Assembly (NCBI RefSeq): GCF_035084215.1
Contig: NC_090336.1
Location: 12,462,001-12,526,000, forward strand
DNA length: 64,000 bases
Reading direction: 5' to 3'
Source of the DNA: Heptranchias perlo
Lineage: Eukaryota
Shown: positions 30,697 to 63,299 of the stretch, one piece after another
How the letters are laid out: each line of letters opens with the position of its first letter
Numbering within the stretch: position 1 is the first letter of the stretch
Notes under the pieces: model-generated
Seen by the model: only the letters and a program-made list of their open reading frames with translations
What the model was told of the DNA's origin: nothing
Databases searched by the model: none
Translations under genes and position numbers: made by a program

Positions 30697-31844
30697 CATC
30701 AAAATCCTGTTACAGGACTTCTGGTAGTTTCTGTTTGCTGTTTTTAACTTGATTGTTCAAATGTACGTTGAAAAGCTATCTACCAGTTTCTGCCCCTCCA
30801 TTGTTCCCACTAGTCTCTGGTATTAACACATCTACGAAGAAAATGAGATCCTTTCCACATGTTATGTGGATTAGGGCCGAGTTGTCTGCCTTCATCGTCG
30901 CGGCTAAGTTCCAATGTTTTTACAAGCCAAAAGCTTGTTCTGCAGGTTTAAGGGACAAAGTTAACCCTTTCCCTGAATGTCGAACATTCCGAATTCACAA
31001 TATCAAAAGGGGTTTTAACTCTTGTCTTACAGTGTATTTAGTGTACAGACATTCGAGAATGACCAACTCCATGGTGCAAATAGGCTCTCAAATCTCACAA
31101 TGTGAGAAATAGTTGATCAGAAATTCCAGTATGTAACCTAATCTAGTTGAAGAGGATCAGATTAATCTTTTTCTAAGATATTTACGTTGGAAGGTCGGAT
31201 TGGGATTTACCACTCGTGTCTATGGTTTTATAAGATGCCTTCCCTAGAAAACCTTTGGACTGTCCCAAATGTCTCGTTCCAAAAGATATTGGCCTAGAAG
31301 TTGGGCGCGAACCCAGTGGCAACCATAAAACTGATAAGCAAGAGGGCCTCGCAAAATTGTTCCTCTTGCGGCATCAGGACGTGGCTGGCATTCTGGGGAC
31401 ACTAGTTGCAGCCCAAGGAGCAGTGCGGCGTCACGAAGCAAGTGAAGATCAATTGGCGGGGATACCAGCACCGGACCTACCGTGAATCGGGGGGGAGGGG
31501 GGGTGTGGGAGGTGGTCGGGAGGGGATCAGCGGTGGCCGGCCAGTGGCCAGTAGTTTTAATGTGGAGCTAGGAGGGGGCCTCCTTATCTATTTACCTTTT
31601 TTGGTGGCAGCCTCAATCGGTCCACTTAAAAAACCACTGGTTTGGCTGCCTGAGAAAACTGACCACAATATGCACAGCGCAGGGTCTGATCGATCACAAT
31701 CCAACATCAGATGGGGGCCTGAAACAGGCGTCATGCCCCCAATTTCCAGAGGCAATGATTCTCACACCTGTTTCAGGCGTGAGACCCATTCAGGCAGGCA
31801 CTGTGAACGATTACAATGCGCCCTAACTAATACGGCTGGCATGC

Positions 31845-34667
31845 CCAGTCGACCCTGCAAAGTCCTCCTCACCAACATCTGGGGACATAGCCATATTCAC
31901 AGAATCATACCTTTCAGCCAACGTCCTAGACTCTTCCATCACCATCCCTGGGTATGACCTGTCCCACCGGCAAGACAGACCCACCAGAGGTGGCAGTACA
32001 GTGATATACAGCCTGGAGGAGTGGCCCTGGGAGTCCTCAACATTGACTCTGGACCCCATGAATTCTCATGGCATCAGGTCAAACATGGGCAAGGAAACTT
32101 CCTGCTGATTACCACCTACCGCCCTCCCTCAGCTGATGAATCAGTCCTCCTCCATGTTGAACACCATTTGGAGGAAGCACTGAGGGTAGCAAGGGCACAG
32201 AATGTACTCTGGGTGTGGGACTTCAATGTCTATCACTAAGAGTGGCTCGGTAGCACCACTACTGACCGAGGCTGGCCGAGTCCTGAAGGACATAGCTGCC
32301 AGACTGGGCTTGTGGCAGGTGGTGAGCGAACTAACATGAGGGAAAAACTTACTTGACCTCGTCCTCACCAATCTACCTGTCTCAAATGCATCTGTCCATG
32401 ACAGTATTGGTAGGAGTGACCACCGCACAGTCCTCGTGGAGATGAAGTCCTGTCTTCGCACTGAGGACACCATCCAATGTGTTGTGTGGCACTATCACCG
32501 TGCTAAATGGGATAGATTCAGAACAGATCTAGCAGCTCAAAACTGGGCATCCATGAGGCGCTGTGGGCCATCAGCAGCAGCAGATTTGAATTCCAGCACA
32601 ATCTGTAACCTCATGGCCCGGCATATTCCTCACTATACCATTACCAACAAGCCAGGGGATCAACCCTGGTTCAATGAGGAGTGTAGAAGAGCATGCCAGG
32701 AGCAGCACCAGGCGTACCTAAAAATGAGGTGCCAACCTGGTGAAGCTACAACTTAGGACTACATGCATGCTAAACAGCGGAAGCAACATGCTATAGACAG
32801 AGCTAAGCGATTCCACAACCAACGGATCAGATCAAAGCTCTGCAGTCCTGCCACATCCAGTCGTGAATGGTGGTGGACAATTAAACAACTAACGGGAGGA
32901 GGAGGCTCTTTAAACATCCCCATCCACAATGATGGCGGGAGTCCAGCACGTGAGTGCAAAAGACAAGGCTGAAGCGTTTGCAACCATCTTCAGCCAGAAA
33001 TGCCGAGTGGATAATCCATCTCAGCCTCCTCCCCACTGTCACAGAAGCCAGTCTTCAGCCAATTCGATTCACTCCACGTGATATCAAGAAACGGCTGAGT
33101 GCACTGGATACAGCAAAGGCTGTGGGCCCCGACAACATCCCGGCTGTAGTCCTGAAGACATGTGCTCCAGAACTAGCTGTGCCTCTAGCCAAGCTGTTTC
33201 AGTACAGCTACAACACTTGCATCTACCCGACAATTTGGATAATTGCCCAGGTATGTCCTGTCCACAAAAGCAGGACAAATCCATCGGCCAATTACCGCCC
33301 CATCAGTCTACTCTCAATCATCAGCAAAGTGATGGAAGGTGTCGTCGACAGTGCTATCAAGCGGCACTTACTCACCAATAACCTGCTCACCGATGATCAG
33401 TTTGGGTTCCGCCAGGACCACTCGGCTCCCAACCTCATTACAGCCTTGGTCCAAACATGGACAAAAGAGCTGAATTCCAGAGGTGAGGTGAGAGTGACAG
33501 CCCTTGACATCAAGGCAGCATTTGACTGAGTGTGGCACCAAGGAGCCCGAGTAAAATTGAAGTCAATGGAATCAGGGGGAAAACTCTCCAGTGACTGGAG
33601 TCATACCTAGCACAAAGGAAGATGGTAGTGGTTGTTGGAGGCCAATCATCTCAGCCCCAGGACATTGCTGCAGGAGTTCCTCAGGGCAGTGTCCTAGGCC
33701 CAACCATCTTCAGCTGCTTCATCAATGGCCTTCCCTCCATCATAAGGTCAGAAATGGGGATGTTCGCTGATGATTGCACAATGTTCAGTTCCATCTGCAA
33801 CCCCTCAGATAATAAAGCAGTCCGAGCCCGCATGCAGCAAGACCTGGACAACATCCAGGCTTGGGCTCATAAGTGGCAAGTAACATTCGCGCCAGACAAG
33901 TGCCAGACAATGATCATCTCCAACAAGAGAGAGTCTAACCACCTCCCCTTGACATTCAACGGCATCACCATCGCCGAATCCCCCACCATCAACATCCTGG
34001 GGGGTCACCGTTGACCAGAATCTTAACTGAACCAGCCATATAAATACTGCGGCTACAAGAGCAGGTCAGAGGCTGGGTATTCTGCTGCGAGTGACTCACC
34101 TCCTGACTCCCCAAAGCCTTTCCACCATCTACAAGGCACAAGTCAGGAGTGTGATGGAATACTCTCCACTTGCCTGGATGAGTGCAGCTCCAACAACACT
34201 CAAGAAGCTCGATACCATCCAGGGCAAAGCAGCCCGCTTGATTGGCACCCCATCCACCACCCTAAACATTCACTCCCTTCACCACCGGCACACAGTGGCT
34301 GCAGTGTGTACCATCCACAGGATGCACTGCAGCAACTCGCCAAGGCTTCTTCGACAGCACCTCCCAAACCCGCGACCTCTACCACCTAGAAGGACAAGGG
34401 CAGCAGGCACATGGGAACAACACCACCTGCACGTTCCCCTCCAAGTCACACACCATCCCGACTTGGAAATATATCGCTGTTCCTTCATCGTCGCAGGGTC
34501 AAAATCCTGGAACTCCCTTCCTAACAGCACTGTGGGAGAACCTTCACCACATGGACTGCAGCGGTTCAAGAAGGCGGCTCACCACCACCTTCTCAAGGGC
34601 AATTAGGGATGGGCAATAAATGCTGGCCTCGCCAGTGGCGCCCACATCCCATGAACGAATAAAAAAA
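31845..34667 (+). mobile_element. Near-complete decayed CR1-clade LINE ORF2 (APE endonuclease + RT) with poly(A) tail
   Basis: YRPPS, DFNV, GPDNIPAVVLK, YRPISLLS, QFGFR, LDIKAAFD, GVPQGSVLGP and FADD motifs, with frameshifts and stops; tail ...cccatgaacgaataaaaaaa. Confidence 0.95.
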
Positions 34668-34954
34668 TGATGCATTAACTAGCAGTACTTTATTTAACAA
34701 AATCCACAATGCTACAACTAATACCATCACAAACGTAGGACATTGATGATTGCAGCAAAAGTATAGGGATAACAGAATCTAAATCATCATAAGCAGAATG
34801 GTAAATTTAAGGATATCACAATGTTGCAGCTGTGGCTGGGTTTTGCTTGGTTACAATTATGTTCAATGACCCAACATTACAGTATTAACGTAGTGACACT
34901 ACGTTTGCAGCCTGTATTCACATTTACAGTCTTATGGCTGTCACCTACACGTTT

Positions 34955-37485
34955 TTTTCATTCATCTCAGGATGTGAGCGTCGCTGGCAAGGCCGGTATT
35001 TATCGTTCAGCCCTCGTTGCCTTGGATACAACTGAGAGGCTTTGCTCGGCCACTTCGGAGGGCAGCTGACGGTCAACCACATCGGAATGTGGGACTGGAG
35101 TCACATGTAGGCCAGGCCAGGCGAGTATGGCAGGTTTCCTTCCCTAAAAGACATTAGTGACCCAAGTAGGTTTTTACAACAATCTGACAGTTTCATGGTC
35201 ACTTTTACTGATACCAGCTTTTTACTTCCAGATTTTTTAAAAAGTGAATTCAAATTCTCAAATTGCCATTGTGGGTTTTGAATTCACATTCTCCGGATTA
35301 TTGGTCCAGGCCTCTCCGCCTCTCTCCTCCTTTAAGACACTCCTTAAAACCTTAAAACTCTTTGGGCTCGATATTAGCACCCGCTATCGGGTGCGTTCCT
35401 GGCAGGGGGGGGGGGCTCTGAAAATCGGGGAATCCCGGAGCGGGTCGGGAGCCCAGCTCCAACCCGCCCACTTCCGGGTTCCCCACGGACGCGCTGACAT
35501 GCGCGCGCAGCCCCCGCATGTGGGACTCCCGCAGACAATTAAAGACAGCGGGGTGCCACTTAACAATATTTATTCTGCTATTTCAGGTCGTTAACAGACC
35601 TGATTAAGGGAATATTTCAGGAGGGGTGCGATTTTAGAAACAACTGGGACTGTTTCCCGTACTGGGGGAAACACTCCCAGTTCAAATGGACATGTTGCAG
35701 CTATAGCCTGTGGCAGCTGCAAAGGTCCATTTGACAGGTCGGGGGGGAGACCCTCACTCATTGCCGGAGGCCACTCTGTCACTTTGGACAAAGTTTGGCC
35801 TCCACCACCCTCCTCCTAACAATCAAATTCACCAACTTGCACACTTACCCCGGGGTCCAGACACATGTACCTACCTTGCGGACCCCCTCAGTTGTACATC
35901 TTCAGGATGGGGGCCGCCGTAGCTGCAGTCATGACCTCCTCGGAGGGCGAACAGCATCACCAGCCTCGCCAGCCACGCCGTCCACCTCTGACACGTGGAG
36001 CTCCACAACACAGTGCTGTGACACATCCACCTGCACAGCAGGAGGGAGGGCAACCGCAGAGAGAGATGCGTCGCAGAGGGCACTACCCTCGCCACAGGGT
36101 CCACAGACCGAGGCTCAGCTTCCTGGACCTCTCTGAGCAGCAGTGCACACGGAGGCTCAGAGTCACTCGACGTGTATCCGTGGACATCTGCAGCCTCCTT
36201 CATGCCGAGCTGCTCCCGGCTGGCCCGAGCACCATCTTCTTACCTGTCGCTGTCAAGATCACCACTGCCCTCAACAACTTCTCCTCCGCATCCTTCCAGG
36301 GGGCCACCGGGGACATCGCTGACGTCTCTCAGTCGTCTGCAAAAAAGAGCCCTGCAAATACACCTACACCCACTCTGCAGTGACACAATGGGTGGCATCA
36401 GTTGTGGGTCTTCATTGTGATCCTCAGGAAAGGGCATTATTGCACAAACCAGACAAGATTCACAAAGACATGGCAGTAGTGGTGCCAATATAATATGTAA
36501 TGTGAGTTGCTCAGAAATTAAATATAAGTAAAAACCATGACAAACCCTCAAACACCCTTGTGCATCCCCTTCATGCTCACAACACGTTTGCCTTACGCTG
36601 CCTACTGCACAAATGTGATGCATGCCCTGTGGTTGCAGCACAGGTAGTGGCAGGTTTAGTGAGGCTGACCGTGAAAGAGATGCATGAGAGGGTGAATACG
36701 AGATAGAGCCATGAGATTGTATGAGGATTGGGTTGAGTGGTAGTGGCGGGATGAGTACTGGCGAGGTGAGTAAGTGCAGGTAAGATGAGGATGAGCTTTG
36801 AGTGGGTGTGAGGGGTGATGTGACAGAGTAGTGTTGGCAATGCAGAAGGAGATGTGGGGTGGGGGCGGTGATGTGGCAGACAGAGTGTAGGAGAATGAGT
36901 AAGTGTACTCACTTTGGCTGACCTACTTAGGTGATTGCAGCACCTCCTGCACTGTATGCAGGTGGGCGATATGTTGGTGGTGCAGGTGACCTCCTCTGCC
37001 ACCTCGAGCCAGGCCTTCCTGGTGGCAGAGGCAGGCCGCTTCCTCCCGCCCGCCAGGGGGGAAGATCTCTGTCCTCCCCCTCCTCCTCACCCCATCCAAT
37101 GATACCTGGAGCGAGGCATCATTAACCTGGGAGAAGCCTTCCCCCTGGGCTGCTCCATGCTGTAATTTTTCTATTTGTTGCAGCATCTGTCAGTGGAGGA
37201 CTGCCCCTTTTAAATAGAGCTCCTCCAGCTGACAGACCTTACTGCGCATGCGCAGCCCGCCCGACAAGCAGGTCAGCAGCGGGGAACCCGGAACAACAGG
37301 TAAGTGGATCCAATTAGGCTGCGATCGCGCTCGGGGCAGACTGATTTCACCGGGCGTGTCCTTCTTTGGCTCAGTATCAATTTATGTCAGATTGCGCTCC
37401 TGTGAAGCACCTTGGGATGTTTTACTATGTTAAAAATGCTACATAATGCAAGTTGCTGTTGGATGACTAGTCCAGTAACGTATGA
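34955..37485 (-). mobile_element. Same tRNA-headed SINE (-), split: 34955-35315 plus head remnant 37461-37485
   Basis: Reverse complement of the 62.1 kb SINE; breaks at ...tccaggcctct (35315) and resumes ggatgactagtccagtaac (37461). Confidence 0.75.
35364..37355 (+). mobile_element. Decayed PIF/Harbinger DNA transposon: transposase N-terminal part (+) and Myb/SANT-like ORF (-)
   Basis: 35865-36383(+): RRRGHYPRHRVHRPRLSFLDLSEQQCTRRLRV...LPVAVKITTALNNFSSASFQGATGDIADVSQSS resembles HARBI-type transposase. The ~36910-37160(-) frameshifted AWLEVAEEV...TCIQCRR is Myb/SANT-like. Left end GGGCTCGATATT; no right TIR found. Confidence 0.85.
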
Positions 37486-38986: not shown

Positions 38987-38999
38987 GGGGGGAAAGGGG

Positions 39000-40357: not shown

Positions 40358-40384
40358 AGACGGGGGTGGGGAGTTTGCCAGCTT

Positions 40385-40700: not shown

Positions 40701-40719
40701 CCATCCCAGTCAGTGGAGA

Positions 40720-43700
40720 GGGTGAGGGAGGGAGGGAGTGAGTGTGAGGGAGGGAGGGAGTGAGTGTGAGGGAGGGTGAGGGAGGGAGTGAGTGTGAGGG
40801 AGGGGGACAGGGAGGGAGTGAGTGTGTGTGAGGGAGGGGGACAGGGAGGGAGTGAGTGTGAGTGAGGGAGGGAGAGTGTGAGGGAGGGAGGGAGTGAGTG
40901 TGAGGGAGGGGGACAGGGAGGGAGGGGGACAGGGAGGGAGGGGGACAGGGAGGGAGGGGGACAGGGAGGGAGGGGGACAGGGAGGGAGGGGGACAGGGAG
41001 GGAGGGGGACAGGGAGGGAGGGGGACAGGGAGGGAGTGTGTGTGGGGGAGGGAGTGTGTGTGGGGGAGGGGGGACAGGGAGTGAGTGAGTGTGTGTGAGG
41101 GAGGGGGGACAGGGAGTGAGTGAGTGTGTGTGAGGGAGGGGGGACAGGGAGTGAGTGAGTGTGTGTGAGGGAGGGGGGACAGGGAGTGAGTGAGTGTGTG
41201 TGAGGGAGGGGGGACAGGGAGTGAGTGAGTGTGTGTGAGGGAGGGGGGACAGGGAGTGAGTGAGTGTGTGTGAGGGAGGGGGGACAGGGAGTGAGTGAGT
41301 GTGTGTGAGGGAGGGGGGACAGGGAGTGAGTGAGTGTGTGTGAGGGAGGGGGGACAGGGAGTGAGTGAGTGAGTGTGTGTGAGGGAGGGGGGACAGGGAG
41401 TGAGTGAGTGAGTGTGTGTGAGGGAGGGGGGACAGGGAGTGAGTGAGTGAGTGTGTGTGAGGGAGGGGGGACAGGGAGTGAGTGAGTGTGTGTGAGGGAG
41501 GGGGGACAGGGAGTGAGTGAGTGTGTGTGAGGGAGGGGGGACAGGGAGTGAGTGAGTGTGTGTGAGGGAGGGGGGACAGGGAGTGAGTGAGTGAGTGTGT
41601 GTGAGGGAGGGGGGACAGGGAGTGAGTGAGTGAGTGTGTGTGAGGGAGGGGGGACAGGGAGTGAGTGAGTGAGTGTGTGTGAGGGAGGGGGGACAGGGAG
41701 TGAGTGAGTGAGTGTGTGTGAGGGAGGGGGGACAGGGAGTGAGTGAGTGAGTGTGTGTGAGGGAGGGGGGACAGGGAGTGAGTGAGTGAGTGTGTGTGAG
41801 GGAGGGGGGACAGGGAGTGAGTGAGTGTGTGTGAGGGAGGGGGGACAGGGAGTGAGTGAGTGTGTGTGAGGGAGGGGGGACAGGGAGTGAGTGAGTGTGT
41901 GTGAGGGAGGGGGGACAGGGAGTGAGTGAGTGTGTGTGAGGGAGGGGGGACAGGGAGTGAGTGAGTGAGTGTGTGAGGGAGGGGGGACAGGGAGTGAGTG
42001 AGTGAGTGTGTGTGAGGGAGGGGGGACAGGGAGTGAGTGAGTGAGTGTGTGTGAGGGAGGGGGGACAGGGAGTGAGTGAGTGAGTGTGTGTGAGGGAGGG
42101 GGGACAGGGAGTGAGTGAGTGAGTGTGTGTGAGGGAGGGGGGACAGGGAGTGAGTGAGTGAGTGTGTGTGAGGGAGGGGGGACAGGGAGTGAGTGAGTGA
42201 GTGTGTGTGAGGGAGGGGGGACAGGGAGTGAGTGAGTGAGTGTGTGTGAGGGAGGGGGGACAGGGAGTGAGTGTGTGTGTGTGTGAGGGAGGGGGGACAG
42301 GGAGTGAGTGAGTGTGTGTGTGTGAGGGAGGGGGGACAGGGAGTGAGTGAGTGTGTGTGAGGGAGGGGGGACAGGGAGTGAGTGAGTGTGTGTGAGGGAG
42401 GGGGGACAGGGAGTGAGTGAGTGTGTGTGAGGGAGGGGGGACAGGGAGTGAGTGAGTGTGTGTGAGGGAGGGGGGACAGGGAGTGAGTGAGTGTGTGTGA
42501 GGGAGGGGGGACAGGGAGTGAGTGAGTGTGTGTGAGGGAGGGGGGACAGGGAGTGAGTGAGTGTGTGTGAGGGAGGGGGGACAGGGAGTGAGTGAGTGTG
42601 TGTGAGGGAGGGGGGACAGGGAGTGAGTGAGTGTGTGTGAGGGAGGGGGGACAGGGAGTGAGTGAGTGAGTGTGAGGGAGGGGGGACAGGGAGTGAGTGA
42701 GTGTGTGTGAGGGAGGGGGGACAGGGAGTGAGTGAGTGTGTGTGAGGGAGGGGGGACAGGGAGTGAGTGAGTGTGTGTGAGGGAGGGGGGACAGGGAGTG
42801 AGTGAGTGTGTGTGAGGGAGGGGGGACAGGGAGTGAGTGAGTGTGTGTGAGGGAGGGGGACAGGGAGTGAGTGTGTGTGAGGGAGGGGGGACAGGGAGGG
42901 AGGGAGTGAGTGAGTGTGAGGGAGGGGGACAGGGAGTGAGTGTGTGAGAGAGGGTGAGGGAGGGAGTGTGTGTGAGGGAGGGGGGACAGGGAGTGAGTGA
43001 GTGTGAGAGAGGGAGGGGGACAGGGAGGGAGGGAGTGAGTGTGTGTGAGGGAGGGGGACAGGGAGTGAGTGTGTGTGAGGGAGGGAGGGAGTGAGTGTGT
43101 GTGAGGGAGGGGGACAGGGAGGGAGGGAGTGAGTGTGTGTGAGGGAGGGGGACAGGGAGGGAGGGAGTGAGTGTGTGTGAGGGAGGGGGACAGGGAGGGA
43201 GGGAGTGAGTGTGTGTGAGGGAGGGGGACAGGGAGGGAGGGAGTGAGTGTGTGTGAGGGAGGGGGACAGGGAGGGAGGGAGTGAGTGTGTGTGAGGGAGG
43301 GGGACAGGGAGGGAGGGAGTGAGTGTGTGTGAGGGAGGGGGACAGGGAGGGAGGGAGTGAGTGTGTGTGAGGGAGGGGGACAGGGAGGGAGGGAGTGAGT
43401 GTGTGTGAGGGAGGGGGACAGGGAGGGAGGGAGTGAGTGTGTGTGAGGGAGGGGGACAGGGAGGGAGGGAGTGAGTGTGTGTGAGGGAGGGGGACAGGGA
43501 GGGAGGGAGTGAGTGTGTGTGAGGGAGGGGGACAGGGAGGGAGGGAGTGAGTGTGTGTGAGGGAGGGGGACAGGGAGGGAGGGAGTGAGTGTGTGTGAGG
43601 GAGGGGGACAGGGAGGGAGGGAGTGAGTGTGTGTGAGGGAGGGGGACAGGGAGGGAGGGAGTGAGTGTGTGTGAGGGAGGGGGACAGGGAGGGAGGGAGT

Positions 43701-43885
43701 GAGTGTGTGTGAGGGAGGGGGACAGGGAGGGAGGGAGTGAGTGTGTGTGAGGGAGGGGGACAGGGAGGGGGACAGGGAGGGAGGGAGTGAGTGTGTGTGA
43801 GGGAGGGGGACAGGGAGGGAGGGAGTGAGTGTGTGTGAGGGAGGGGGACAGGGAGGGAGGGAGTGAGTGTGTGTGAGGGAGGTGA
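40720..43885. repeat. G-rich compound minisatellite (GGGACAGGGAGTGAGTGAGTGTGTGTGAGGGAGGG, ~35-39 bp variants)
   Basis: Tandem units directly visible, with block-wise variant switching. Confidence 0.98.
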
Positions 43886-43899
43886 CGGGGAGTGAGTGT

Positions 43900-44135
43900 C
43901 TTCACTGAGAGGGTGGTGAACCTGTGGAATTCTCTCCCACAGAAGGCTGTGGAGGCCAAGTCACTGAATATATTTAAGAAGGAGCTAGATAGATTTCTAC
44001 ACACAAAAGGCATCAAGGGGTATGGGGAGAGAGTGGGAATATGGTATTGAGATCGAGGATCAGCCATGATCATATTGAATGGCGGAGCAGGCTCGAAGGG
44101 CCGAATGGCCTGCTCCTGGTCCTATTTTCTATGTT
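43900..44135 (+). mobile_element. CR1 LINE 3' tail
   Basis: gagggtggtgaacctgtggaattc...ggccgaatggcctgctcc tail. Confidence 0.85.
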
Positions 44136-45079: not shown

Positions 45080-45960
45080 TAGAATAACGAACAGTGACGG
45101 ACAGGGAAAGACCTTCTGGTCCATCCAGCCTATCTGTTGTGCATCACGATATATGCACTCCCCACCTGAAGCCATGTGATCTCCTGGCAGAGGCAAGAAA
45201 ACAGATTTAAAAACCCAGGCCAATTAGAGTGAAAAAAATCTGGGAAATTCCTCTCTGACCCCCTTAGGCGATCGAGTCCAGGAGACCACTCTGGCCCTGA
45301 TTAATATTATACAGTATCTACCTTTTGTATGAGATGATCTCCGTCCCATTCAGAAACAGGTCCAGCTCTCGCTTGAAGGAATTCAGCGAGTCAGCGTCCA
45401 CCACACGAGTCGGCAGCCTGTTCCACAGGTCCACTGTTCTCTGGGAAAAGAACCACCTCCTGAGATCTAACCTAGTTCTGACCTTGTACAAATTGTGACC
45501 CCTGGTCGTCCCCTAACATTCAAAACAGAGATTGATAGATTTCTAGATATTAAAGGCATGAAGGGATATGGGGATAGTGCAGGAAAATGGCGTTGAGGTC
45601 GATCATCAGCCATGATCTTGTTGAATGGCGGAGCAGGCTCGAGGGGCCTACTCCTGATCCTATTTCTTGTGTTCTTATGTTGTTCTAACCTATTTAATTG
45701 GAATAAACTCAACTCCAACACAATCTTTTCCCTTCATCATCTTATAAACCCCAATCAAATCACCTCCTAAGTCTACGCTTCTCTAAAGTGTAGAGTCCCT
45801 GCTCTAAATTGTTCTCTTGATAACTAAGATGCTTCAAACTGGGAATTAATTTAGTGGCCCTTCTCTGCATCTTTTTCAAAAGCTTCAATTTCACTCACCA
45901 TGTGAGGAGACCAAAACTGGTCACAGTATTCTAACTGAGGCCTGATCAAGGTCCTATACA
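45080..45960 (-). mobile_element. Old CR1 fragment (-) with a younger CR1 tail (+, ~45515-45680) nested inside
   Basis: Reverse-strand CR1 C-terminal sequence interrupted by a plus-strand tail ending ttcttgtgttcttatg. Confidence 0.7.
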
Positions 45961-46074
45961 AGGAAAAATAGTATGTTTAAATAGTATTGATTGGCTTTGG
46001 GTGACTCCCTTAAGGGTGCTCGAAATGAGCCAATGCATATATTTTAACAACAACTTGCATTTATATAGCGCCTT

Positions 46075-46610
46075 TATGGTTTTGTTACCTCTAGACTCGA
46101 CTATTCCAATGCTCTCCTGGCCGGCCTCGCTCTGTAAACCTGAGCTCATCCAAAACTCTGCTGCCCGTATCCTAACTTGCACCAAGTCCCATTCTCCCAT
46201 CACCCCTGTGCTCGCTGACCTACATTGGCTCCCGGTCCAGCAATGCCACGATTTTAATATTCGTGGCCTCGCCCCTCCCTATCTCTGTAACCTCCTCCAG
46301 CCCTGCTACCCTCTGAGATCTCTGCATTCCTCCAATTCTGGCCCCTTACGCATCCCTGATTTCCTTTGCTCCACCATTGGCGGCCGTGCTGCTTAGGCCC
46401 AAAGGTCTGGAATTCCCTCCCTAAACCCCTCTACCCCTCTCTCCTCCTTTTAAGTCGCTCCTTAAAACTTACCTCTTTGACCAAGCTTTTGGTCACCTGT
46501 CTTAATATCTCCTTATGTGAGTCGGTGTCACATTTTGTCTGATTTATGTCCCTGTGAAGCGCCTTGGGATGTTTTACTATGTTAAAGGCGCTATAAGACA
46601 AGTTGTTGTT
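46075..46610 (+). mobile_element. L2-clade LINE 3' fragment
   Basis: LIQNSAARILT...ITPVLADLHWLPV...STIGGRA and the same tail. Confidence 0.85.
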
Positions 46611-47350: not shown

Positions 47351-47980
47351 ACCCGTTGGAAGTTCCTTTTTAATGGTTCGCTGGTTAAGGCACTAAGTTG
47401 ACAAACCACATAGACCAGGAATGATCTAGGTTCGATCCTTCGTCTGTTGAGTCAGCCTACATAATCACTGCATCTCTAAGTGAAATATTGTAAGTGAAGC
47501 ATTTTTTGACATATTTCTGAACAATATGATGAGGACCTCAGCAGCTCCTGCCCTAGGGAGGGGGGCTGCAGCCAGGCGTTCGTGCTGCTGCTCGTTGTTG
47601 AGCTATCTGTGTGTTGATACTGCGTCTTTGCAACTAAATCTGTATCCAAGTGTGTATGCAACTTATGTAGTGGTGACAGAAAATATACTGATTTTACTGG
47701 CTGATGAAATCGCTCTTTCCCATCTGCAACTCGTCCCTCCTGCTCAAGGTATTCTGTTTGCTTTTGCTGGTCTTGCATGTGGTGGCCTTTGCACCCTGTT
47801 CTCCCTCCCAGTGTCTCTCTCTCAGTCATCTGCTTTGCATCACTTCATTTTTCCGATCCAACGTTTGGGGTGGGGGAGGGGGGAAACGAGTCTCACAACC
47901 AAGGTCTTTACTATTTTAAATTTTCCCCCTAATTCAGTTTGTAACTTGTTTACCGGTTGCAGCTTCCACACTGTATGGGT

Positions 47981-48164
47981 ACCCAGCTCCACGTGTATCA
48001 GTTCATGGTGTATATCCCTTACCCAGCTCCACGTGTATCAGTTCATGGTGTATATCCCTTACCCAGCTCCACGTGTATCAGTTCATGGTGTATATCCCTT
48101 ACCCAGCTCCACGTGTATCAGTTCATGGTGTATATCCCTTACCCAGCTCCATGTGTATCTGTTC
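47981..48164. repeat. 40-bp minisatellite ACCCAGCTCCACGTGTATCAGTTCATGGTGTATATCCCTT, ~4.6 units, continuing after the LINE at 52517-52563
   Basis: Tandem units at 47981, 48021, 48061, 48101 and 48141. Confidence 0.97.
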
Positions 48165-51100
48165 GTGGGTACGGTAGCATAGTGGTTATGTTACTGGACT
48201 AATAATCCAGAGGCCTGGACTAATAATCTGGAGTCATGAGTTCAAATCCCGACGGCAGGACAGACCCACCAGAGTGGCGGTACAGTGAGGAGGGAGTGGC
48301 CCAGGGAGTTCTCAACATTGATTCCGGACCCAATGAAATCTCATGGCATCAGGTCAAACGTGGACAAGGAAACCTCCTGCTGATTACCACCTACCGTCCT
48401 CCCTCAGCTGATGAATCAGTCCTCCTCCATGTTGAGCACCACTTGGAGGAAGCACTGAGGGGTAGCAAGGGCACCGAATGTACTCTGGGTGGGGGACTTC
48501 AATGTCTATCACCAAGAGTGGCTTGGTAGTACCACTACTGACCGAGCTGGCCGAGTCCTGAAGGACATAGCTGCCAGACTGGGCCTGTGGCAGGTGGTAA
48601 GTGAACCAACACGAGGGAAAAACCTACTTGACCTTGTCCTCACCAATCTACCTGTCGCAGATGCTTCTGTCCATGGCAGTATTGGTTGGAGTGACCACCG
48701 CACAGTCCTCGTGGAGATGAAGTCCAGTCTTCGCACTGAGGACACCATCCAACGTGTTGTGTGGCACTATCACCGTGCTAAATGGGATAGATTCAGAACA
48801 GATCTAGCAGCTCAAAACTGGGCATCCATGAGGCACTGTGGGCCATCAGCAGCAGCAGAATTGTATTCCAACACAATCTGTAACCTCATGACCCGGCATA
48901 TTCCTCACTCTACCATTACCAACAAGCCAGGGGATCAACCCTGGTTCAATGAGGAGTGTAGAAGAGCATGCCAGGAGCAACACCAGCAGTACCTAAAAAT
49001 GAGGTGCCAACCTGGTGAAGCTACAACTCAGGACTACATGCATGCTAAACAGCGGAAGCAACGTGTTGTAGACAGAGCTAAGTGATTCCACAACCAACGG
49101 ATCAGATCAAAGCTCTGCAGTCCTCCCACATCCAGTCGTGAATGGTGGTGGACAATTAAATAACTAACTGGAGGAGGAGGCTTTGCAAACATCCCCACCC
49201 TCAATGATGTCGGAGTCCAGCACGTGAGTGCAAAAGACAAGGCTGAAGCGTTTGCAACCATCTTCAGCCAGAAGTGCCGAGTAGATGATCCATCTCGGCC
49301 TCCTCCTGATATCCCCACCATCACAGAAGCCAGTCTTCAGCCAAATCGATGCACCCCACGTGATCTCAAGAAACAGCTGAGTGCACTGGATACAGCAAAG
49401 GCTATGGGCCCCGACAACATCCCGGGTGTAGTGCTGAAGACTTGTGCTCCAGAACTAGCTGCGCCTCTAGCCAAGCTGTTCCAGTACAGCTACAACACAG
49501 GCATCTACCCGACAATGTGGAAAATTGCCCAGGTATGTCCTATCCACAAAAAGCAGGACAAATCCAATCCGGCCAATTACCGGGCGATCAGTCTACTCTC
49601 AATCATCAGCAAAGTGACGGAAGATGTCGTCGACAGTGCTTTCAAGCGGCACTTACTCACCAATAACCTGCTCACCGATGCTCAGTTTGGGTTCCGCCAG
49701 GACCACTTGGCTCCAGACCTCATTACAGCCAAACATGGACAAAAGAGCTGAATTCCAGAGGTGAGGTGAGAGTGACTGCCCTTGACGTCAAGGCAGCATT
49801 TGACCGAGTGTGGCACCAAGGAGCCGTAGTAAAATTGAAGTCAATGGGAATCGGGGAAAACTCTCCAGTGGCTGGAGTCATACCTAGCACAAAGGAAGAT
49901 GGTAGTGGTTGTTGGAGGCCAATCATCACAGCCCCAGGGCATTGCTGCAGGAGTTCCTCAGGGCAGTGTCCTAGACCCCAACCATCTTCAGCTGCTTCAT
50001 CAATGACCTTCCTCCATCATGAGGTCAGAAATGGGGATATTCGCTGATGATTGCACAGTGTTCAGTTCCATTAGCAACCCCTCAGACAATGAAGCAGTCC
50101 GTGCCCGCGTGTGGCAAGACCTGGACAACATCCAGGCTTGGGTTGATAAGTGGCAAGTAACGTTCGTGCCAGGCAACGACCATCTCCAACAAGAGGGAGT
50201 CTAACCACCACCCCTTTACATTCAACGGCATCACCATCAACATCCTGGGGGTCACCATTGACCAGAAACTTAACTGGACCAGCCATATAAATACTGTGGC
50301 TTTTTTTAAATTTGTGGGCATTGCTGGCGAGGCTGGCATTTATTGCCCGTCCCTAATTGCCCTTGAGAAGGTGGTGGTGAGCTGCCGCCTTGAACCGCTG
50401 CAGTCCGTGTGGTGAAGGTTCTCCCACAATGCTGTTAGGAAGGGAGTTCCAGGATTTTGACGCAGCGACAATGAAGGAACGGCGATATATTTCCAAGTCG
50501 GGATGGTGTGTGACTTGGAGGGGAACGTGCAGGTGATATTGTTCCCATGTGCCTGCTGCTCTTGTCCTTCTCGGTGGCAGAGGTCACGGGTTTGGGAGGT
50601 GCTGTCGAAGAAGCCTTGGTGAGTTGCTGCAGTGCGTACTGTGGATGGTACACACTGCAGCCACTGTGCGCCGGTGGTGAAGGGAGTGAATGTTTAGGGT
50701 GGTGGATGGGGTGCCAATCAAGTGGGCTGCTTTGTCCTGGATGGTGTTGAGCTTCTTGAGTGTTGTTGGAGCTGCACTCATCCAAGCAAGTGGAGAGTAT
50801 TCCATCACACTCCTGACTTGTGCCTTGTAGATGGTGGAAAGGCTTTGGGGAGTCAGGAGGTGAGTCACTCGCTGCAGAATACCCAGCCTCTGACCTGCTC
50901 TTGTAGCCACAATATTTATATGGCTGGTCCAGTTAAGTTTCTGGTCAATGGTGACCCCCACGATATTGATGATGGGGGATTCAGCGATGGTAATGCCGTT
51001 GAATGTCAAGGGGAGGTGGTTAGACTCTCTCTTGTTGGAGATGGTCATTGCCTGGCACTTGTCTGGCGCGAATGTTACTTGCCACTTATGAGCCCAAGTC

Positions 51101-52516
51101 TGGATGTTGTCCAGGTCTTGCTGCATGCGGGCTCGGACTGCTTCATTATTTGAGGGTTTGCGAATGGAACTGAACACTATGCAATCATTAGCGAGCATCC
51201 CCATTTCTGACCTCATGATGGAGGGAAGGTCATTGATGAAGCAGCTGAAGATGGTTGGGCCTAGAACACTGCCCTGAGGGACTCCTGCAGCAATGCCCTG
51301 GGGCTGTGATGATTGGCCTCCAACAACCACTACCATCTTCCTTTGTGCTAGGTATGACTCCAGCCACTGGAGATTTTTCCCCCTGATTCCCATTGACTTC
51401 AATTTTACTAGGGCTCCTTGGTGCCACACTCGGTCAAATGCTGCCTTGATGTCAATGGCAGTCACTCTCACCTCACCTCTGGAATTCAGCTCTTTTGTCC
51501 GTGTTTGGACCAAGGCTGTAATGAGGTCTGGAGCCAAGTGGTCCTGGCGGAACCCAAACTGAGCATCGGTGAGCAGGTTATTGGTGAGTAAGTGCCGCTT
51601 GATAGCACTGACGACGACACCTTCCATCACTTTGCTGATGATTGAGAGTAGACTGATGGGCCGGTAATTGGCCGGATTGGATTTGTCCTGCTTTTTGTGG
51701 ACAGGACATACCTAGGCAATTTTCCACATTGTCGGGTGGATGCCAGTGTTGTAGCTGTACTGGAACAGCTTGGCTAGAGGCGCAGCTAGTTCTGGAGCAC
51801 AGGTCTTCAGCACTACAGCCGGGATGTTGTCGGGGCCCATAGCATTTGCTGTATCCAGTGCACTCAGCCGTTTCATGATATCATGTGGCTGCAAGGGCAG
51901 ATCAGAAGCTGGGTATTCTGCAGCGAGTGACTCACCTCCTGACTCCCCAAAGCCTTTCCACCATCTACAAGGCACAAGTCAGGAGTGTGATGGAATACTC
52001 TTCACCTGCCTGGATGAGTGCAGCTCCAACAACACTAGAAGCTCGACGCCATCCAGAACAAAGCAGCCCGCTTGATTGGTACCCCATCCACCATCCTAAA
52101 CAATCACTCCCTTCACCACCGGTGCACCGTGGCTGCAGTGTGTACCATCCACAGGATGCACTGCAGCAATTCGCCAAGGCTTCTTCGAATGCACCTCCCA
52201 AACCCGCGACCTTTATCACCTAGAAGGACAAGAGCAGCAGGCGCATGGGAACACCACCACCTGAACGTTCCCCTCCAAGTCACACACCATCCCGACTTGG
52301 AAATATATCGCCGTTCCTTCATCGTCGCTGGGTCAAAATCCTGGAACTCCCTTCCTAACAGCACTGTGGGAGAACCTTCACCACACGGACTGCAGCGGTT
52401 TAAGAAGGCGGCTCACCACCACCTTCTCAAGGTCAATTAGGGATGGGCAATAAATGCTGGCCCCGCCAGTGACGCCCGCATCCCATGAATGAACTTTAAA
52501 AAAAAAAAAAAAATAA
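48165..52516 (+). mobile_element. LINE of the same family with a tRNA-like head, flanked by a 31-bp TSD and interrupted by an inverted copy
   Basis: ATCCCTTACCCAGCTCCATGTGTATCTGTTC at 48134-48164 and 52517-52547; endonuclease/RT ORF fragments; poly(A) at ~52498-52513. Confidence 0.92.
50302..51883 (-). mobile_element. 5'-truncated same-family LINE inserted in reverse orientation (open 348-aa RT segment)
   Basis: ORF 50584-51630(-) with QFGFR/DIKAAFD/GVPQGSVLGP; T-run at 50301; TGTGGCT duplicated at 50295-50301 and 51884-51890. Confidence 0.92.
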
Positions 52517-53829
52517 ATCCCTTACCCAGCTCCATGTGTATCTGTTCATAGTGTATATCCCTTGGCTTTGTCCACGGTGAGATGTAGGATACTGTGTCAC
52601 TTCACATAGGTTGTAGTACAAGTGAAGAGGGATTAGAGGTGCCAAGCAGAGCTCTATGGGCATGGAAAGAATTCAGTGAGATATGGCCAGTCTGTGGAGT
52701 TAAGAGTTGATGTTGGTTCCTGAGACTTTTGAGCCATTCACCGTAGGGCAACAATTGTTTTTGAAATGATGTGATTCGTGTTAGTTGATCTCCCGTTGTG
52801 GTGTTTGTGGCAGGTCACAGCACGGACTGTGCCATACCCATATCTGTTGGACGTTATGTTCATAGATCTCTCTTGTCTCTGGTTCTCTGTCTTTCTCTTC
52901 TTTTGTTTCTCCCCTCCCTGTATCCCTTCCCCATCTTCCCAAGCCCTCTGTCATCACCTTCTCAAAACTCACCTTCTCAAAACTCCCCCCCCCCCCTCCC
53001 ACCACCCCCAACCCCGGGAGCCTTCTGCTTCTTCCCTTATTCCCTGGGACTGAATGAGCAAACTAGCGGTTAGCTTTTAAAAGTGTGTGTTTATGCTTAT
53101 ATTGTATAATTGCCAGTTTCCCATCTTAATGGTGAGAAACTAGCAAAGAGGAGTCAGCAGTCCTTGAGGGGAGGGGGATTGGGTGGGGTGGTAAGGGTGG
53201 TCAGGAAGTGGTGAAGCTGAGGCCTGCAGAAGCAGGCTGTGTGGGGGCAGGAAGAAGAGCCGCTGTGGCCCGAGGGGTGAGGGGGTCAGCGAGCAGTAGC
53301 TGAGGCCCAAGGCGGGAGGAGGGGTGAGAAGCAACGGTGGGAACCCCAAGGAAGCAGAGTGGCAGGGGAGGTGGGGTAAGTATGGCAGCTGAGGCCCAAG
53401 GTGGCAGCAAGGACAGGTAGGGGACTGTATCGGAGATCAGGCCAGGTTTATGACTCAGGTGACACACAGTGCCACTAAGCTCAGAGAGGACTGAAAGGCA
53501 ATTATAATTCTAAGTAAACATACTCTACAGCTTAAATTAACACATGACAAGAATAGCCTCACCTGACCTTCAAGTAAGTGCAGGGAGTGTGTGATATACG
53601 TAAAATATAACACAGATTACTAGCAGATCTCCTGTGGAATTTTTGTGTAGTCTGGAAGATGCAACACTGTTGTGCTGTTTAGCTTCTAATCTGATTTGTC
53701 CCTTTCCAGCTAGTTACTTGGGTTCTCCCTGTGGGGGTAATGTTCTAAATCAGTAAATCCAGTTAACTCAAGCTGCTCATGAACTGCTGAGGTCAAAAAG
53801 CACTTAATTTTTAAGGAAACTGACAGTCG

Positions 53830-54569: not shown

Positions 54570-55930
54570 GTAAGTCAGAGGATGTGCTACTTTAAAAGAT
54601 CAAGAGAATTATACTGTGTAAAGAACAATGTGTTATTCTGCTGTTGAGGTGCAGGTCTTGTGTCCCTTTAAGGTTGCAGACTGTAATTGCTTTGCATTTT
54701 TGAAATCAAGGCTGTGGCCACTAACAGGCCAGACTGGCATTCTCTTTTTTAACTGTGTTTGCTAAGATTAAGGTTTAAGCAATCACAGCTTAATTGCTAT
54801 TTGGTCAGAAAGCTTGGAATGTGCTCATTAGTTTCAGGCTTGTTATGCAGCTGTTACAAAGAATAAGTGTCTGTAATATATTCAGTTTTAGTATATTACA
54901 GAGAGACTTATTCTCTCTCCCTCTCTTCCTACTCTTTCCCCCTCCTACATACCCGCTCCCTGACTTTCATCCCTCTCTCCCGATACCCTCTTCCTTGCAC
55001 AACAGATGCCTGTGATGCTTCACATGCTCAAAATGTACTCCCTTCAAATGTTCTGCCAGAAAAACGTATAGTCAGAGCGTAGGCTTTTGAAACAGGCCTT
55101 GAAATTAAAATTTTAATGAAAGTATTAAAAGATGCGAAAGGCAATTCAGTTGGCAAATTAAATCACGTTATTGTGAAAATGTATTCTTTTGATTATTTTT
55201 TTTTTGTTTAAAAGCTTATTTTGGTTTAGAAATTTCAGTTACTGAGAAAAAAACGGGCATTTTTTTAATCAAAAAGCATTTTGAGCAATCTCGCTGGTTT
55301 GTCTTTACCATGTTTTTTTTTGTTGGTTCTTTCTGGTTCACAATAGATTGTTTTCATTAGTCCTTAGTAATTTTGCGGTGGCTATTTTTTTTTAGCTGCT
55401 TTCCATGTGTTTAGTTCATATTTATTCAGTTCTGATTTGCTGCTTTCACTTGAGCCGATCCATAACATGATGGCGAAAGGCTGATGTTACAGAAGTGTCA
55501 CGAACAGGGTGTGCACGCAGGTGCAAGACTTTTCATGTATTCCCAGCAGATTTTCTGCCACGTTGCTCCCAGAGAGTTGGAGCATATGCTGGTTTAGAAC
55601 AATAAAGTAGCCAAGCCACGTAACACCCAATCAGGGCCTCTGATTCATGGTGACTGGATAAGTCAAATTATGTTCTATCAAATCAACAGTGTGATGGGCA
55701 AGTGTTGCAGGAAGATTGTGCTATATGCAAGACTTCTGTGACGTTGTGCAGGGTGAGTCAGGGGACAAGCTATTTTCCAAAAATGAAAGGTCTTTCTGGC
55801 ACGTAATATCGAGGCTACTGATTTACAGTGATTTAAGTCAAGTGGTATTGTGGGATTTTTATTGGTGCTTTGGAGATTGAATTCCATAACGTTGTCCATT
55901 TTTCTGTGAAACCTGTACAAGTGGCATATA

Positions 55931-56203
55931 TTAGCTGGACTCCTTTAGCTGGACTCCTTTAGCTGGACTCCTTTAGCTGGACTCCTTTAGCTGGACTCCT
56001 TTAGCTGGACTCCTTTAGCTGGACTCCTTTAGCTGGACTCCTTTAGCTGGACTCCTTTAGCTGGACTCCTTTAGCTGGACTCCTTTAGCTGGACTCCTTT
56101 AGCTGGACTCCTTTAGCTGGACTCCTTTAGCTGGACTCCTTTAGCTGGACTCCTTTAGCTGGACTCCTTTAGCTGGACTCCTTTAGCTGGACTCCTTTAG
56201 CTG
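55931..56203. repeat. Perfect 14-bp tandem repeat TTAGCTGGACTCCT, ~19.5 units
   Basis: Directly visible. Confidence 0.98.
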
Positions 56204-56349
56204 TTACTCTTCCCATTGTTACAGCAACACCGTGTGCAATGTTTGTGAATTGGAGGTATGTACTTGTTACTTAGCGATACAGGGAAGGGGAGGGCCTGTG
56301 CATCAGTAGCAGGGGAGAGATGTTCCTGGAGTCTGGCAGCTCTGAGGAG

Positions 56350-56730
56350 TGTCGAAGAGCATGCCAGGAGCAGCTGAAAATGAAGTGCCAACCTGGTGCA
56401 GCTACTACACTGGCCTGCTAAACCGCAAAAACAGCATCCTATAGACAGCTAAATGATCCCACAACCAATAGCTCGGGTTAAAGCTCTGAAAACCTGCCAC
56501 GTCCCGTCGTGAATGATGGTGGATGAATAAGAAACTAACGGGGGGAGGAGGAGGCTCCATCAACATCCCCATCCTTAACGATGGCGGAGCCCAGCACGTG
56601 AGTGCAAAAGACAAGGCTGAAGCCTTTGTAGCCATCTGCAGCCAGCAGTGTCGAGCGGAAGATCCTTCTCGGCCACCTCCTGAGGTGCCCACCATCACGG
56701 ATGTCAGTCTTCAGCCCATTCGATTCTTGT
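56350..56730 (+). mobile_element. Older internal fragment of the same CR1-clade LINE family
   Basis: KKLTGGGGGSINIPILNDGGAQHVSAKDKAEAF...PTITDVSLQPIRF matches 32.9 kb and 49.2 kb. Confidence 0.85.
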
Positions 56731-62086: not shown

Positions 62087-62474
62087 GGTATGTACGGTAA
62101 TGCGGTATGGTAGTGTAGTGGTTATGCTACTGGGCTAGTAATCCAGAGAACATGAGTTCAAATCCTGCCATAGCAATTTGATAATTTTCAATTCAGTTTT
62201 TAAAAATAATCTGGAAGTAATAAGTTGGTATCCGCAAAAGTGACCATGAAGCTGTCAGGTTGCCGTAAAAATTCAACTGGTTCACTAATGTCCTTTAGTG
62301 AAGGAAACCTGCCGTCCTTACCCAGTCCTACACCAACATGGTTGACTTTATCTGCCCTCCGAAGGCGCCTAGCAAACCACTTAGTTGTATCAAACTGGTA
62401 CTCGAACTAGGAATGAGCAATAAATGCCGGCCTCGCCAACGATGCGCACATCCTGAGAATGAATTTTTAAAAAA
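62087..62474 (+). mobile_element. tRNA-headed SINE sharing its 3' tail with the CR1-clade LINE
   Basis: A-box-like tagtgtagtgg, B-box-like gagttcaaatcc, tail gcaataaatgccggcctcgccaacgatgcgcacatcc. Confidence 0.8.
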
Positions 62475-63299
62475 GTCTTGCACTCAATCCCTGGTCCTGG
62501 ATGGTACATCTGATCTCGGGGATTGGGAAAATCAGCCTGGCTTCATGCTCCTGATCACTGCTGGAAAGTGTGTGTAGACGATGGGTCGGATCAGGCTTGC
62601 CCATGATGCCTTACCTTGCCTCAGTTTCTAGGCTTGTGCAGGAAAGTGGCTCCTTGGTCAAGGTGCTTTGATTTTCGAGCTTGTACATACAGTAGCCATG
62701 CAACAGCTTGCAGGTACGTGAACAGACCACGAGCGTGTCCCAGGTGGTACTGAACAAGACAGAAGGTTGCTGAACAATACAACAACCTCTGGGGATAGAC
62801 TTGTTGGGCACCAAATATTCTCCTCTAGAGGGAACCTGCAGGTTCCAAACTATTCTTTAAATCACGACACCTTGCCAGTAAATTAGCAACAATCCGCAGT
62901 CTGCTCCTGACAATTCAAAGTTGTCTTTTGCGTTTTTAAAAAAACTCGCAATATCCAAACATTTGAAGTAAACAATGCAAATAACAGCAAAATGGGAATT
63001 AGAAATGAATTTAAATTAAGTGGACCAGACTGGATAAAAAAGAATTTATTGACAGTAATGTTGGTAGATGGTGATCTGCTGCTGGCTAAATTACTCACAG
63101 ATGAGGATTGGGTTGTCGCTCATCATTAAAGGGGAGGGTTTTTATTGTTGGTCACTGACATCTGCTGGAAGAATTTTTTCCAGAATTTTTGAAGGGACAG
63201 ACGTGCTTTCCCCCCCCCACCCCTGTATTCCAGCCAGTAGCAGCTAACCAGCCGACCCCAGAGTGACCAAAAAAAACTGCTAACTGCTTCCGTAAAGAG

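What the first reader, a model, noticed from the sequence alone, without database searches (positions are those of the whole stretch)
48134..52547. LINE that starts with a tRNA-derived Pol III head: SINE-LINE chimera or Pol III-headed autonomous element
A single 31-bp TSD (48134-48164 / 52517-52547) encloses a unit that begins with gggtacggtagcatagtggttatgttactggac...gagttcaaatccc (A/B-box-like). This is the same head as the SINE at 62087. It joins directly into the LINE endonuclease region at ~48250 via shared ccc..ggca microhomology (SINE cccacaatggcaa; LINE cccaccggcaagacagac). The SINE also shares this LINE's 3' tail. Either RT switched from LINE RNA to SINE RNA, or the full-length LINE natively carries the tRNA head and the SINE is its internal-deletion derivative. 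The second option would be an unusual autonomous element and a direct view of SINE genesis.
Basis: partly seen in the sequence, partly recalled or inferred. Interest (0 to 1): 0.7.

Follow-up and report, generated by a model that had tools for sequence, protein, structure and literature searches.

The report
tRNA-headed shark LINE shedding SINEs
This is a broken copy of an abundant shark-type jumping gene whose full-length copies begin with the tRNA-like promoter piece of short non-coding SINEs and appear to shed SINE-like short copies again and again, so it is likely a protein-coding element made by RNA polymerase III, an enzyme known for short non-coding RNA.

Summary
The head is native to the LINE family, not a one-off graft. 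Of 67 copies picked by the endonuclease region alone, 39 run 5' to the same tRNA-like head. Full-length copies are 3.3 kb: head, Deu-like domain, one EN-RT frame, tail; no ORF1. Eleven of 39 have the frame intact. The window copy lacks about 535 nt between head and endonuclease, a junction found once genome-wide, and carries a nested antisense copy. Short head+Deu+tail copies are scattered among LINE copies on a tree, so they likely arise repeatedly by deletion. The family matches published elasmobranch Zenon, whose consensuses in five species start with this head, unremarked in the main text. Pol III transcription is inferred: A/B boxes, sharp 5' end, no TTTT in 25 of 34 copies versus 6-8 in a control CR1 ORF. 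No ATG serves the endonuclease; a tRNA-mimic start is possible. No RNA evidence. The 31-bp TSD lies in a minisatellite and is uncertain. This scan noted the family before, here and in other genomes.

The parts
47980..48164 (.). 40-bp minisatellite that received the insertion; its last unit (48134-48164) is the left copy of the 31-bp duplication
48167..48258 (+). tRNA-like head of the LINE family (A-box-like 48175-48185, B-box-like 48238-48249); positions 1-93 of full-length copy L080
   Evidence: (92.6% over 94 nt)
48247..48258 (+). Deletion junction with two-block microhomology; about 535 nt lost (AT-rich linker, Deu-like domain, basic N-terminal leader, first third of the endonuclease)
   Evidence: L080 1-93 then 617-2719; 1 match genome-wide with up to 2 mismatches
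48247..50301 (+). Outer LINE body, first part: rest of the APE endonuclease and most of RT, with frameshifts and stops
   Evidence: (PF14529)
50302..51883 (-). Nested 5'-truncated copy of the same family, antisense, with a 7-bp duplication (50295-50301 / 51884-51890); 375-aa RT frame at 50584-51711
   Evidence: (PF00078)
51884..52516 (+). Outer LINE 3' part: end of the ORF, tail shared with the SINE, short A tract
52517..52547 (.). Right copy of the 31-bp duplication (variant minisatellite unit)
62104..62476 (+). Old SINE-like copy: head + Deu-like domain + about 15 nt resembling the older LINE leader + tail
34952..35315 (-). Second old SINE-like copy of the same build
31840..34667 (+). 5'-truncated copy of the same LINE family, no head

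Best explanation
The locus is a dead, internally deleted copy of a 3.3-kb LINE (elasmobranch Zenon type) whose own 5' end is a tRNA-like head plus Deu-like SINE body followed by a single endonuclease-RT frame, and the family is likely transcribed from that head by RNA polymerase III. Shown: the family architecture, its abundance and youth, intact frames, the unique deletion in this copy, the nested insertion, the lack of TTTT on the coding strand, and the lack of an open ATG for the endonuclease in the youngest copies. Inferred: Pol III makes the full-length RNA because the coding strand has lost T-run terminators. The RNA would be uncapped and would need AUG-independent initiation, possibly at a hairpin with a 7-nt loop whose AGC can pair with an in-frame GCT codon 12 nt downstream (about 30%). 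The protein copies its own RNA from the 3' tail. RT jumps at microhomologies would give this copy's deletion and the short head+Deu+tail copies, which keep promoter and tail and so are ready-made SINEs. The head+Deu module was most likely captured from an older Deu-SINE before sharks and rays split.
For: Native head: 13 of 29 and 27 of 39 copies picked by endonuclease sequence reach the head (one copy in both sets); they stop at the same edge with unrelated flanks, and the rest are 5'-truncated along the same path. 3,718 exact matches to the Deu-to-ORF junction motif. 27 of the first 30 Deu-end loci continue into the ORF. 11 of 39 headed copies have a 968-991-codon frame, 97.5-98.8% identical to each other, with APE and RT domains. 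Contigs from runs of three coded organisms bridge the Deu end into the LINE leader. Seven published Zenon consensuses from four sharks and one ray start with head + Deu + leader (first 400 nt, compared by eye). Pol III: A-box-like motif in 32 of 39 and B-box-like in 36 of 39. No T4 run in 25 of 34 copies, against 15-23 A4 runs. In five intact ORFs T3 runs number 5-6 against 12-13.5 expected from synonymous-codon shuffles (P 0.001-0.004); five canonical CR1 ORF2 copies from the same genome have 32-41 T3 and 6-8 T4 runs, not depleted. Translation: first in-frame Met lies beyond the endonuclease match in 10 of 11 intact frames; leader length keeps frame in 57 of 62 copies; GCTA at +12 in 54 of 70 and in frame in 63 of 70. 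SINE shedding: 153 and 230 motif matches join Deu end to tail with many different junctions; 16 young ones need 14 changes on the tree, no more clustered than shuffles (146 of 500 as low), at least 7 forced by supported branches.
Against: No RNA, cap, Pol III occupancy or translation was observed. T4 absence alone is weak: P about 0.01 against base shuffles but 0.07-0.10 against synonymous-codon shuffles. The ORF is T-poor and prefers C-ending codons, which could have other causes; the CR1 control also has no T5 run; only one control family was usable. The young head is not called a tRNA by ARAGORN (0 of 7 loci) or Rfam and does not fold as a cloverleaf. A sharp 5' end also fits an internal Pol II promoter. 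An ATG in good context sits at the Deu end, in frame in 64 of 70 copies and open in 4 older ones, so AUG initiation with readthrough or reinitiation is possible. The loop-codon pairing is only 3-4 bp and shows no compensatory change. Tree bootstraps had not settled, and old copies are unresolved.
Confidence: 0.62

Rival explanations
1. The head and Deu domain are the LINE's native 5' UTR, but the RNA is made by Pol II (internal or read-through promoter) and capped. The A/B boxes are kept for another reason (TFIIIC binding, RNA structure), and T-run poverty reflects codon and base bias.
For: LINE 5' regions are described as Pol II promoters (PMC5786205 passage). T4 absence is not significant against synonymous shuffles. 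An in-frame ATG in good context exists at the Deu end. The first 362 nt fold strongly (z -3.66), with the A-box region inside a long helix, so structure could explain the conservation.
Against: T3 runs are depleted beyond codon usage, unlike the CR1 control. A- and B-box-like motifs are kept across sharks and a ray whose surrounding head sequence differs (by eye). 66 of 70 copies have a stop within nine codons of that ATG, and nine ATGs lie in the first 350 nt, which suits cap scanning poorly.
Confidence: 0.26
2. The headed LINE is the ancient form and Deu-SINEs in general (SacSINE1, LmeSINE1, AmnSINE1) descend from it by internal deletion, so the Deu domain began as a LINE leader.
For: Young deletions have exactly SINE anatomy. 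Old SINE-like copies, including 62104, carry the start of an older LINE leader (21 of 30 loci with that motif go on to the tail, 3 into the ORF). SacSINE1 and LmeSINE1 share head, Deu and tail (PMC5499810).
Against: Hagfish and coelacanth Zenon consensuses do not start with the head in the 400 nt shown. Deu-SINEs occur with other heads and other LINE tails from cnidarians to amniotes. Vertebrate Zenons are not one clade.
Confidence: 0.1
3. The window copy is a one-off chimera made when RT switched from an ordinary headless LINE RNA to a SINE RNA.
For: The exact junction is unique. L031 does look like such a chimera: a head 78% like L080 on a body 96% like it.
Against: The family itself has the head. 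The window head shares older-subfamily states with its body (4 of 4 diagnostic body sites) and differs from the window's SINE head.
Confidence: 0.02

Closest known systems
Elasmobranch Zenon LINEs (CarCar, HypSab, RhiTyp, ScyCan, SquAca Zenon; Stuart et al. 2026, PMC13343379; 'CR1-Zenon like LINE' in bioRxiv 10.1101/443036)
   Same: About 3.3 kb, single APE-RT ORF, no ORF1, A tail. The first 400 nt of the published consensuses show the same head, Deu-like domain and leader, closest in SquAca_Zenon-1 (by eye).
   Different: Probably the same family. What is not in the main text is any mention of tRNA, Pol III or Deu (0 occurrences each). The T-run avoidance, the missing ATG and the SINE-like deletions are not in the passages I read.
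SacSINE1 / LmeSINE1 Deu-SINEs and their tail partner (given as L2-2_CM in PMC5499810, CR1-4_DR-like in PMC3747384)
   Same: tRNA-like head + Deu domain + LINE-type tail; the window SINEs have this build.
   Different: The parts I read report only a shared 3' tail with the LINE; here the LINE also has the head and Deu domain. The labels 'Deu' and 'SacSINE1-like' rest on the papers' descriptions and on recall of the motif, not on an alignment to a curated consensus.
R2 SIDEs (PMC3414825, abstract read) and bipartite RTE/Vingi-derived SINE bodies (PMC5786205, passages read)
   Same: Non-autonomous elements made of a LINE's 5' and 3' ends by internal deletion; template jumps that put tRNA or snRNA at a LINE's 5' end.
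   Different: There the 5' end is a ribozyme or a Pol II UTR, and the tRNA joins are single events. Here the deletion product at once has a tRNA-type promoter because the autonomous parent carries it.
Dicistrovirus IGR IRES pseudoknot I (abstracts; PMC3894237 passages)
   Same: A hairpin loop that can pair with a downstream codon in frame with an AUG-less ORF.
   Different: Only a 3-4-bp candidate pairing; no PKII/PKIII equivalent was sought, no covariation, no assay. A resemblance in how it may work, not membership.

Membership tests
Zenon (CR1 group) LINE | Single ORF with APE endonuclease and RT, no ORF1 | tested here: met
   973-aa frame with PF03372/PF14529 and PF00078; only about 350 nt upstream, longest uORF 76 codons
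Zenon (CR1 group) LINE | Poly-A tail instead of a microsatellite tail | tested here: met
   short A tracts end the copies
Zenon (CR1 group) LINE | 5' sequence similar to published elasmobranch Zenon consensuses | tested here: met
   by-eye comparison of the first 400 nt; no identity computed
Zenon (CR1 group) LINE | RT falls in the Zenon clade on a tree | not testable with these tools
   supplement cells are cut at 400 characters; one search gave no named full-length Zenon protein
Deu-SINE (SacSINE1 type), for the short copies | tRNA-like head with A and B boxes | tested here: met
   ARAGORN tRNA-Thr at 62104-62175; alignment to the LINE head
Deu-SINE (SacSINE1 type), for the short copies | Central Deu domain | tested here: inconclusive
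   central part is 71-81% like the LINE 5' region; no curated Deu consensus was on hand, so the name is recalled
Deu-SINE (SacSINE1 type), for the short copies | Amplified as its own family from a SINE master | tested here: inconclusive
   young short copies are scattered among LINE heads; old ones form an unresolved star
Pol III type-2 transcription unit | Internal A and B boxes | tested here: met
   32 of 39 and 36 of 39 copies
Pol III type-2 transcription unit | No oligo-dT terminator inside the unit | tested here: met
   25 of 34 copies without T4; the rest private or inside foreign inserts; none in the three window copies
Pol III type-2 transcription unit | Pol III/TFIIIC occupancy; 5'-triphosphate RNA | not testable with these tools
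   only assembled contigs were available
IGR-IRES-like element | Anticodon-like loop paired to an in-frame codon before a non-AUG start | tested here: inconclusive
   the three loop-codon pairs hold in 61, 69 and 61 of 70 copies, codon in frame in 63 of 70; no compensatory change
IGR-IRES-like element | Ribosome-binding PKII/PKIII domain and factor-free initiation | not tested
   no pseudoknot search or assay was run

The most novel reading that the evidence does not exclude
An autonomous LINE of sharks and rays is a 3.3-kb protein-coding RNA polymerase III transcript. It is translated without cap or AUG from a tRNA-mimicking fold at the end of the Deu domain, and it keeps spinning off SINEs by internal deletion. 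That would give the long-unexplained Deu domain a job (ribosome recruitment) and show SINE birth directly.
Probability: 0.3. Interest if true: 0.93.

Novelty: new variant of a known kind. Interest (0 to 1): 0.74.

Why it matters
LINEs and SINEs are usually split by promoter and coding capacity: Pol II and coding versus Pol III and non-coding. A review calls the Pol III transcriptome universally short non-coding RNA (PMC10498592, abstract). Thousands of young copies of an element with a SINE front end and an intact EN-RT frame would break that divide. It makes three open questions testable with one construct: whether Pol III can make a translated mRNA in a vertebrate, what the deeply conserved Deu domain does (origin of SINE bodies is called enigmatic in PMC5786205), and how SINEs are born. 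The window copy itself is an ordinary dead insertion.

Tried and rejected
Empty site: contigs of four runs laid on the right flank did not cover it, so the TSD stays untested. Expression: no RNA holder listed; the runs are contigs with guessed type, so nothing is claimed on transcription. Tail T-runs as a built-in Pol III terminator: T3 or longer before the A tract in 9 of 76, 10 of 36 and 7 of 21 tails of rising divergence; the rise with age suggests later mutation, so not used. L2 control: 14 loci were too decayed or held other elements and were dropped. Rfam found nothing in the 5' region. Splicing as the cause of the short copies: by eye the junctions lack AG acceptors and vary; not pursued. 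A -1 frameshift from the 76-codon uORF: no canonical slippery heptamer seen by eye. Protein search gave five distant unnamed relatives (25-35%) and one partial match, no help on clade. The query was the endonuclease region on the minus strand, not the head as intended; the first analysis was void, and the set then served as a head-blind sample. The original Deu-SINE paper was not held. Literature searches listed no paper describing a tRNA-headed or Pol III-transcribed LINE; Repbase Reports and most subscription journals are not covered, and bioRxiv supplements are closed.
Full report
Observation. The described features are in the sequence. The 31-bp repeat at 48134-48164 and 52517-52547 is exact, but it is a unit of a 40-bp minisatellite. 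Both copies share two variants absent from the four upstream units. That fits a real duplication or an insertion between two variant units, and the empty site could not be found. In 23 of 34 full-length relatives no flanking duplication of 6 bp or more was found. The head begins at 48167. The unit also holds an antisense, 5'-truncated copy of the same family at 50302-51883 with a 7-bp duplication. Both are frameshifted, dead copies with endonuclease and RT matches.

Is the head native? A search of the own genome with the junction region scored 40 of 4,254 candidates; 38 matched only from the LINE side. Reading upstream of 29 such loci showed that many run on about 620 nt and end in the same head. 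A second set of 40 loci was chosen by endonuclease sequence only; 39 could be anchored. In one search, 13 of 29 and 27 of 39 reach the first 20 nt of the head (one locus in both sets: 39 of 67). Flanks beyond the head are unrelated, and shorter copies are truncated along the same path. An exact 26-nt motif spanning the Deu-like end and the LINE leader occurs 3,718 times; the Deu-end motif occurs 8,934 times, and 27 of its first 30 loci continue into the ORF. The window's own junction occurs once, with up to two mismatches allowed. So the family has the head, and this copy lost about 535 nt between positions 93 and about 629 of a full copy, at a two-block microhomology. Its head and body both carry states of a slightly older subfamily (4 of 4 diagnostic body sites), as expected for a jump within one RNA or onto a sister RNA.

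Anatomy of the family. I fetched 39 headed copies whole; 34 had the tail in range, mostly 3.29-3.33 kb. Order: head (about 95 nt), AT-rich linker, Deu-like domain to about nt 345, then one frame. Eleven copies have an unbroken stop-to-stop frame of 968-991 codons and are 97.5-98.8% identical. Pfam finds APE endonuclease at residues 43-243 and RT at 528-776. There is no room for an ORF1. These 39 were selected for having the head and for high similarity, so they are biased to young copies.

Evidence on the polymerase. A-box-like and B-box-like motifs are present in 32 and 36 of 39 copies. The coding strand has no T4 run in 25 of 34 copies, against 15-23 A4 runs; expected are about 4.2 (base shuffle, P about 0.01) or about 2 (synonymous-codon shuffle, P 0.07-0.10). 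T3 runs in five intact ORFs are 5-6 against 12-13.5 expected from synonymous shuffles (P 0.001-0.004). Five young canonical CR1 ORF2 copies from the same genome, picked for long frames, have 32-41 T3 and 6-8 T4 runs with no depletion, though no T5 run either. Oligo-dT ends Pol III transcription (PMC10498592 passage). Against: ARAGORN and Rfam do not call the young head a tRNA, it does not fold as a cloverleaf, only one control family was usable, and no RNA was seen. I put Pol III at about 65%.

Translation. In 10 of 11 intact frames the first Met lies past the endonuclease match. The leader between the Deu end and the endonuclease varies in length but keeps frame in 57 of 62 copies; part of this may come from repeat spacing. 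An ATG in good context at the Deu end is in frame in 64 of 70 copies but is followed by a stop within nine codons in 66 of 70; four older copies are open. The first 362 nt fold better than shuffles (z -3.66) and end in a hairpin with a 7-nt loop. Prompted by earlier scan notes, I tested whether the loop's central AGC can pair with a GCT codon 12 nt downstream: the three pairs hold in 61, 69 and 61 of 70 copies, and the codon is in frame in 63 of 70 (the copies were selected partly by this region). By eye the codon stays in frame in the CarCar, HypSab, RhiTyp and ScyCan consensuses and is off by one in SquAca_Zenon-1; in RhiTyp the upstream ATG is out of frame while the codon is not. This resembles pseudoknot I of dicistrovirus IGR IRESs, but it is 3-4 bp without covariation: about 30%.

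SINE genesis. Three of the 30 Deu-end loci are head+Deu+tail elements of about 450 nt or less, each with its own junction. Motif searches find 153 and 230 such joins with many different junctions. I fetched 20 loci of each; 16 and 11 with a near-complete head went into a tree with 55 LINE heads and the two window SINEs. The 16 young ones need 14 changes, are no more clustered than shuffles (146 of 500) and are forced into at least 7 places by supported branches; bootstraps had not settled. They therefore most likely arise again and again from LINE RNA. The window SINE at 62104 is older (71% to L080 over the first 263 nt) and carries about 15 nt like the leader of an older LINE subfamily. That motif occurs 367 times; of 30 loci, 21 go to the tail, 3 into the ORF and 6 neither. 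Whether the old SINEs also amplified on their own is not resolved.

Comparison with what is known. Earlier scan notes pointed to Stuart et al. 2026 (PMC13343379; I read the abstract, passages and supplement rows). It describes Zenon elements in five elasmobranchs, without ORF1 and with a poly-A tail; the main text has no occurrence of tRNA, polymerase III, Pol III or Deu. Its seven elasmobranch consensuses all begin with a tRNA-like head, the Deu-like domain and the same leader; the two hagfish and one coelacanth consensuses do not in the 400 nt shown (compared by eye). Contigs from runs of coded organisms B, C and E also bridge the Deu end into the leader. SacSINE1 is described with a tail shared with L2-2_CM (PMC5499810, parts 2 and 3 of 6 read) or CR1-4_DR-like LINEs (PMC3747384 table). 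PMC5786205 (passages; abstract start) does not derive Deu from a LINE. PMC4824008 and PMC11481361 (passages) show Deu-SINEs with varied heads and tails, CR1-Zenon among the partners in bivalves. PMC5753468 and bioRxiv 10.1101/443036 (passages) add nothing on the head. One review says in passing that non-LTR 5' regions hold an atypical Pol II '(or pol III)' promoter (PMC3894237). Nine searches listed no paper on a tRNA-headed LINE; Repbase Reports are not covered. The wide spread of Deu-SINEs and the headless hagfish and coelacanth Zenons favour capture of the SINE front end by the elasmobranch LINE.

Verdict. The sequence family is known; its SINE-type front end, T-run avoidance, AUG-less frame and recurrent SINE-like deletions appear undescribed in the papers I could search. 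Architecture: shown. Pol III transcription: likely. tRNA-mimic initiation: possible. New variant of a known kind, interest 0.74. The scan has recorded this family many times in this and other genomes; those notes were used as leads only.

Noticed in passing
L031 (G000:C1151, about 188300-188500, minus strand): A second head-to-endonuclease join with another junction (L080 105 to 665); the head is 78% and the body 96% like L080, so this one looks like a true switch from a young LINE RNA to an older head-bearing RNA.
   Followed up: partly
window 29740-29977 and 31265-31502: A 238-bp direct repeat (97%) about 1.5 kb apart, enclosing other repeat fragments and a 100-nt tail of this LINE at 30596-30696.
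   Followed up: no
window 8698-9548 (+), 14600-15457 (-), 22754-23110 (+), 28181-28429 (+): Fragments of canonical CR1-type LINEs; the family is young and very abundant in G000 (330,954 first-look candidates).
   Followed up: partly
window 45935-46393 (+): Decayed L2-like 3' fragment; the label is recalled from the protein motif.
   Followed up: partly
window 56343-56726 (+): Older, diverged piece of the headed LINE's ORF (78% to L080).
   Followed up: no
window 38950-44000, 55860-56270, 58700-59130, 59500-59870: Several long minisatellite arrays with periods of 14-43 bp.
   Followed up: no
several junctions listed: The A4 run just before the deletion junction is expanded to 6-11 A in some short copies, suggesting RT slippage after the template jump.
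   Followed up: no
L104:224-585: The head pairs over a long helix with the AT-rich linker and start of the Deu-like domain in the predicted fold; covariation not tested.
   Followed up: partly
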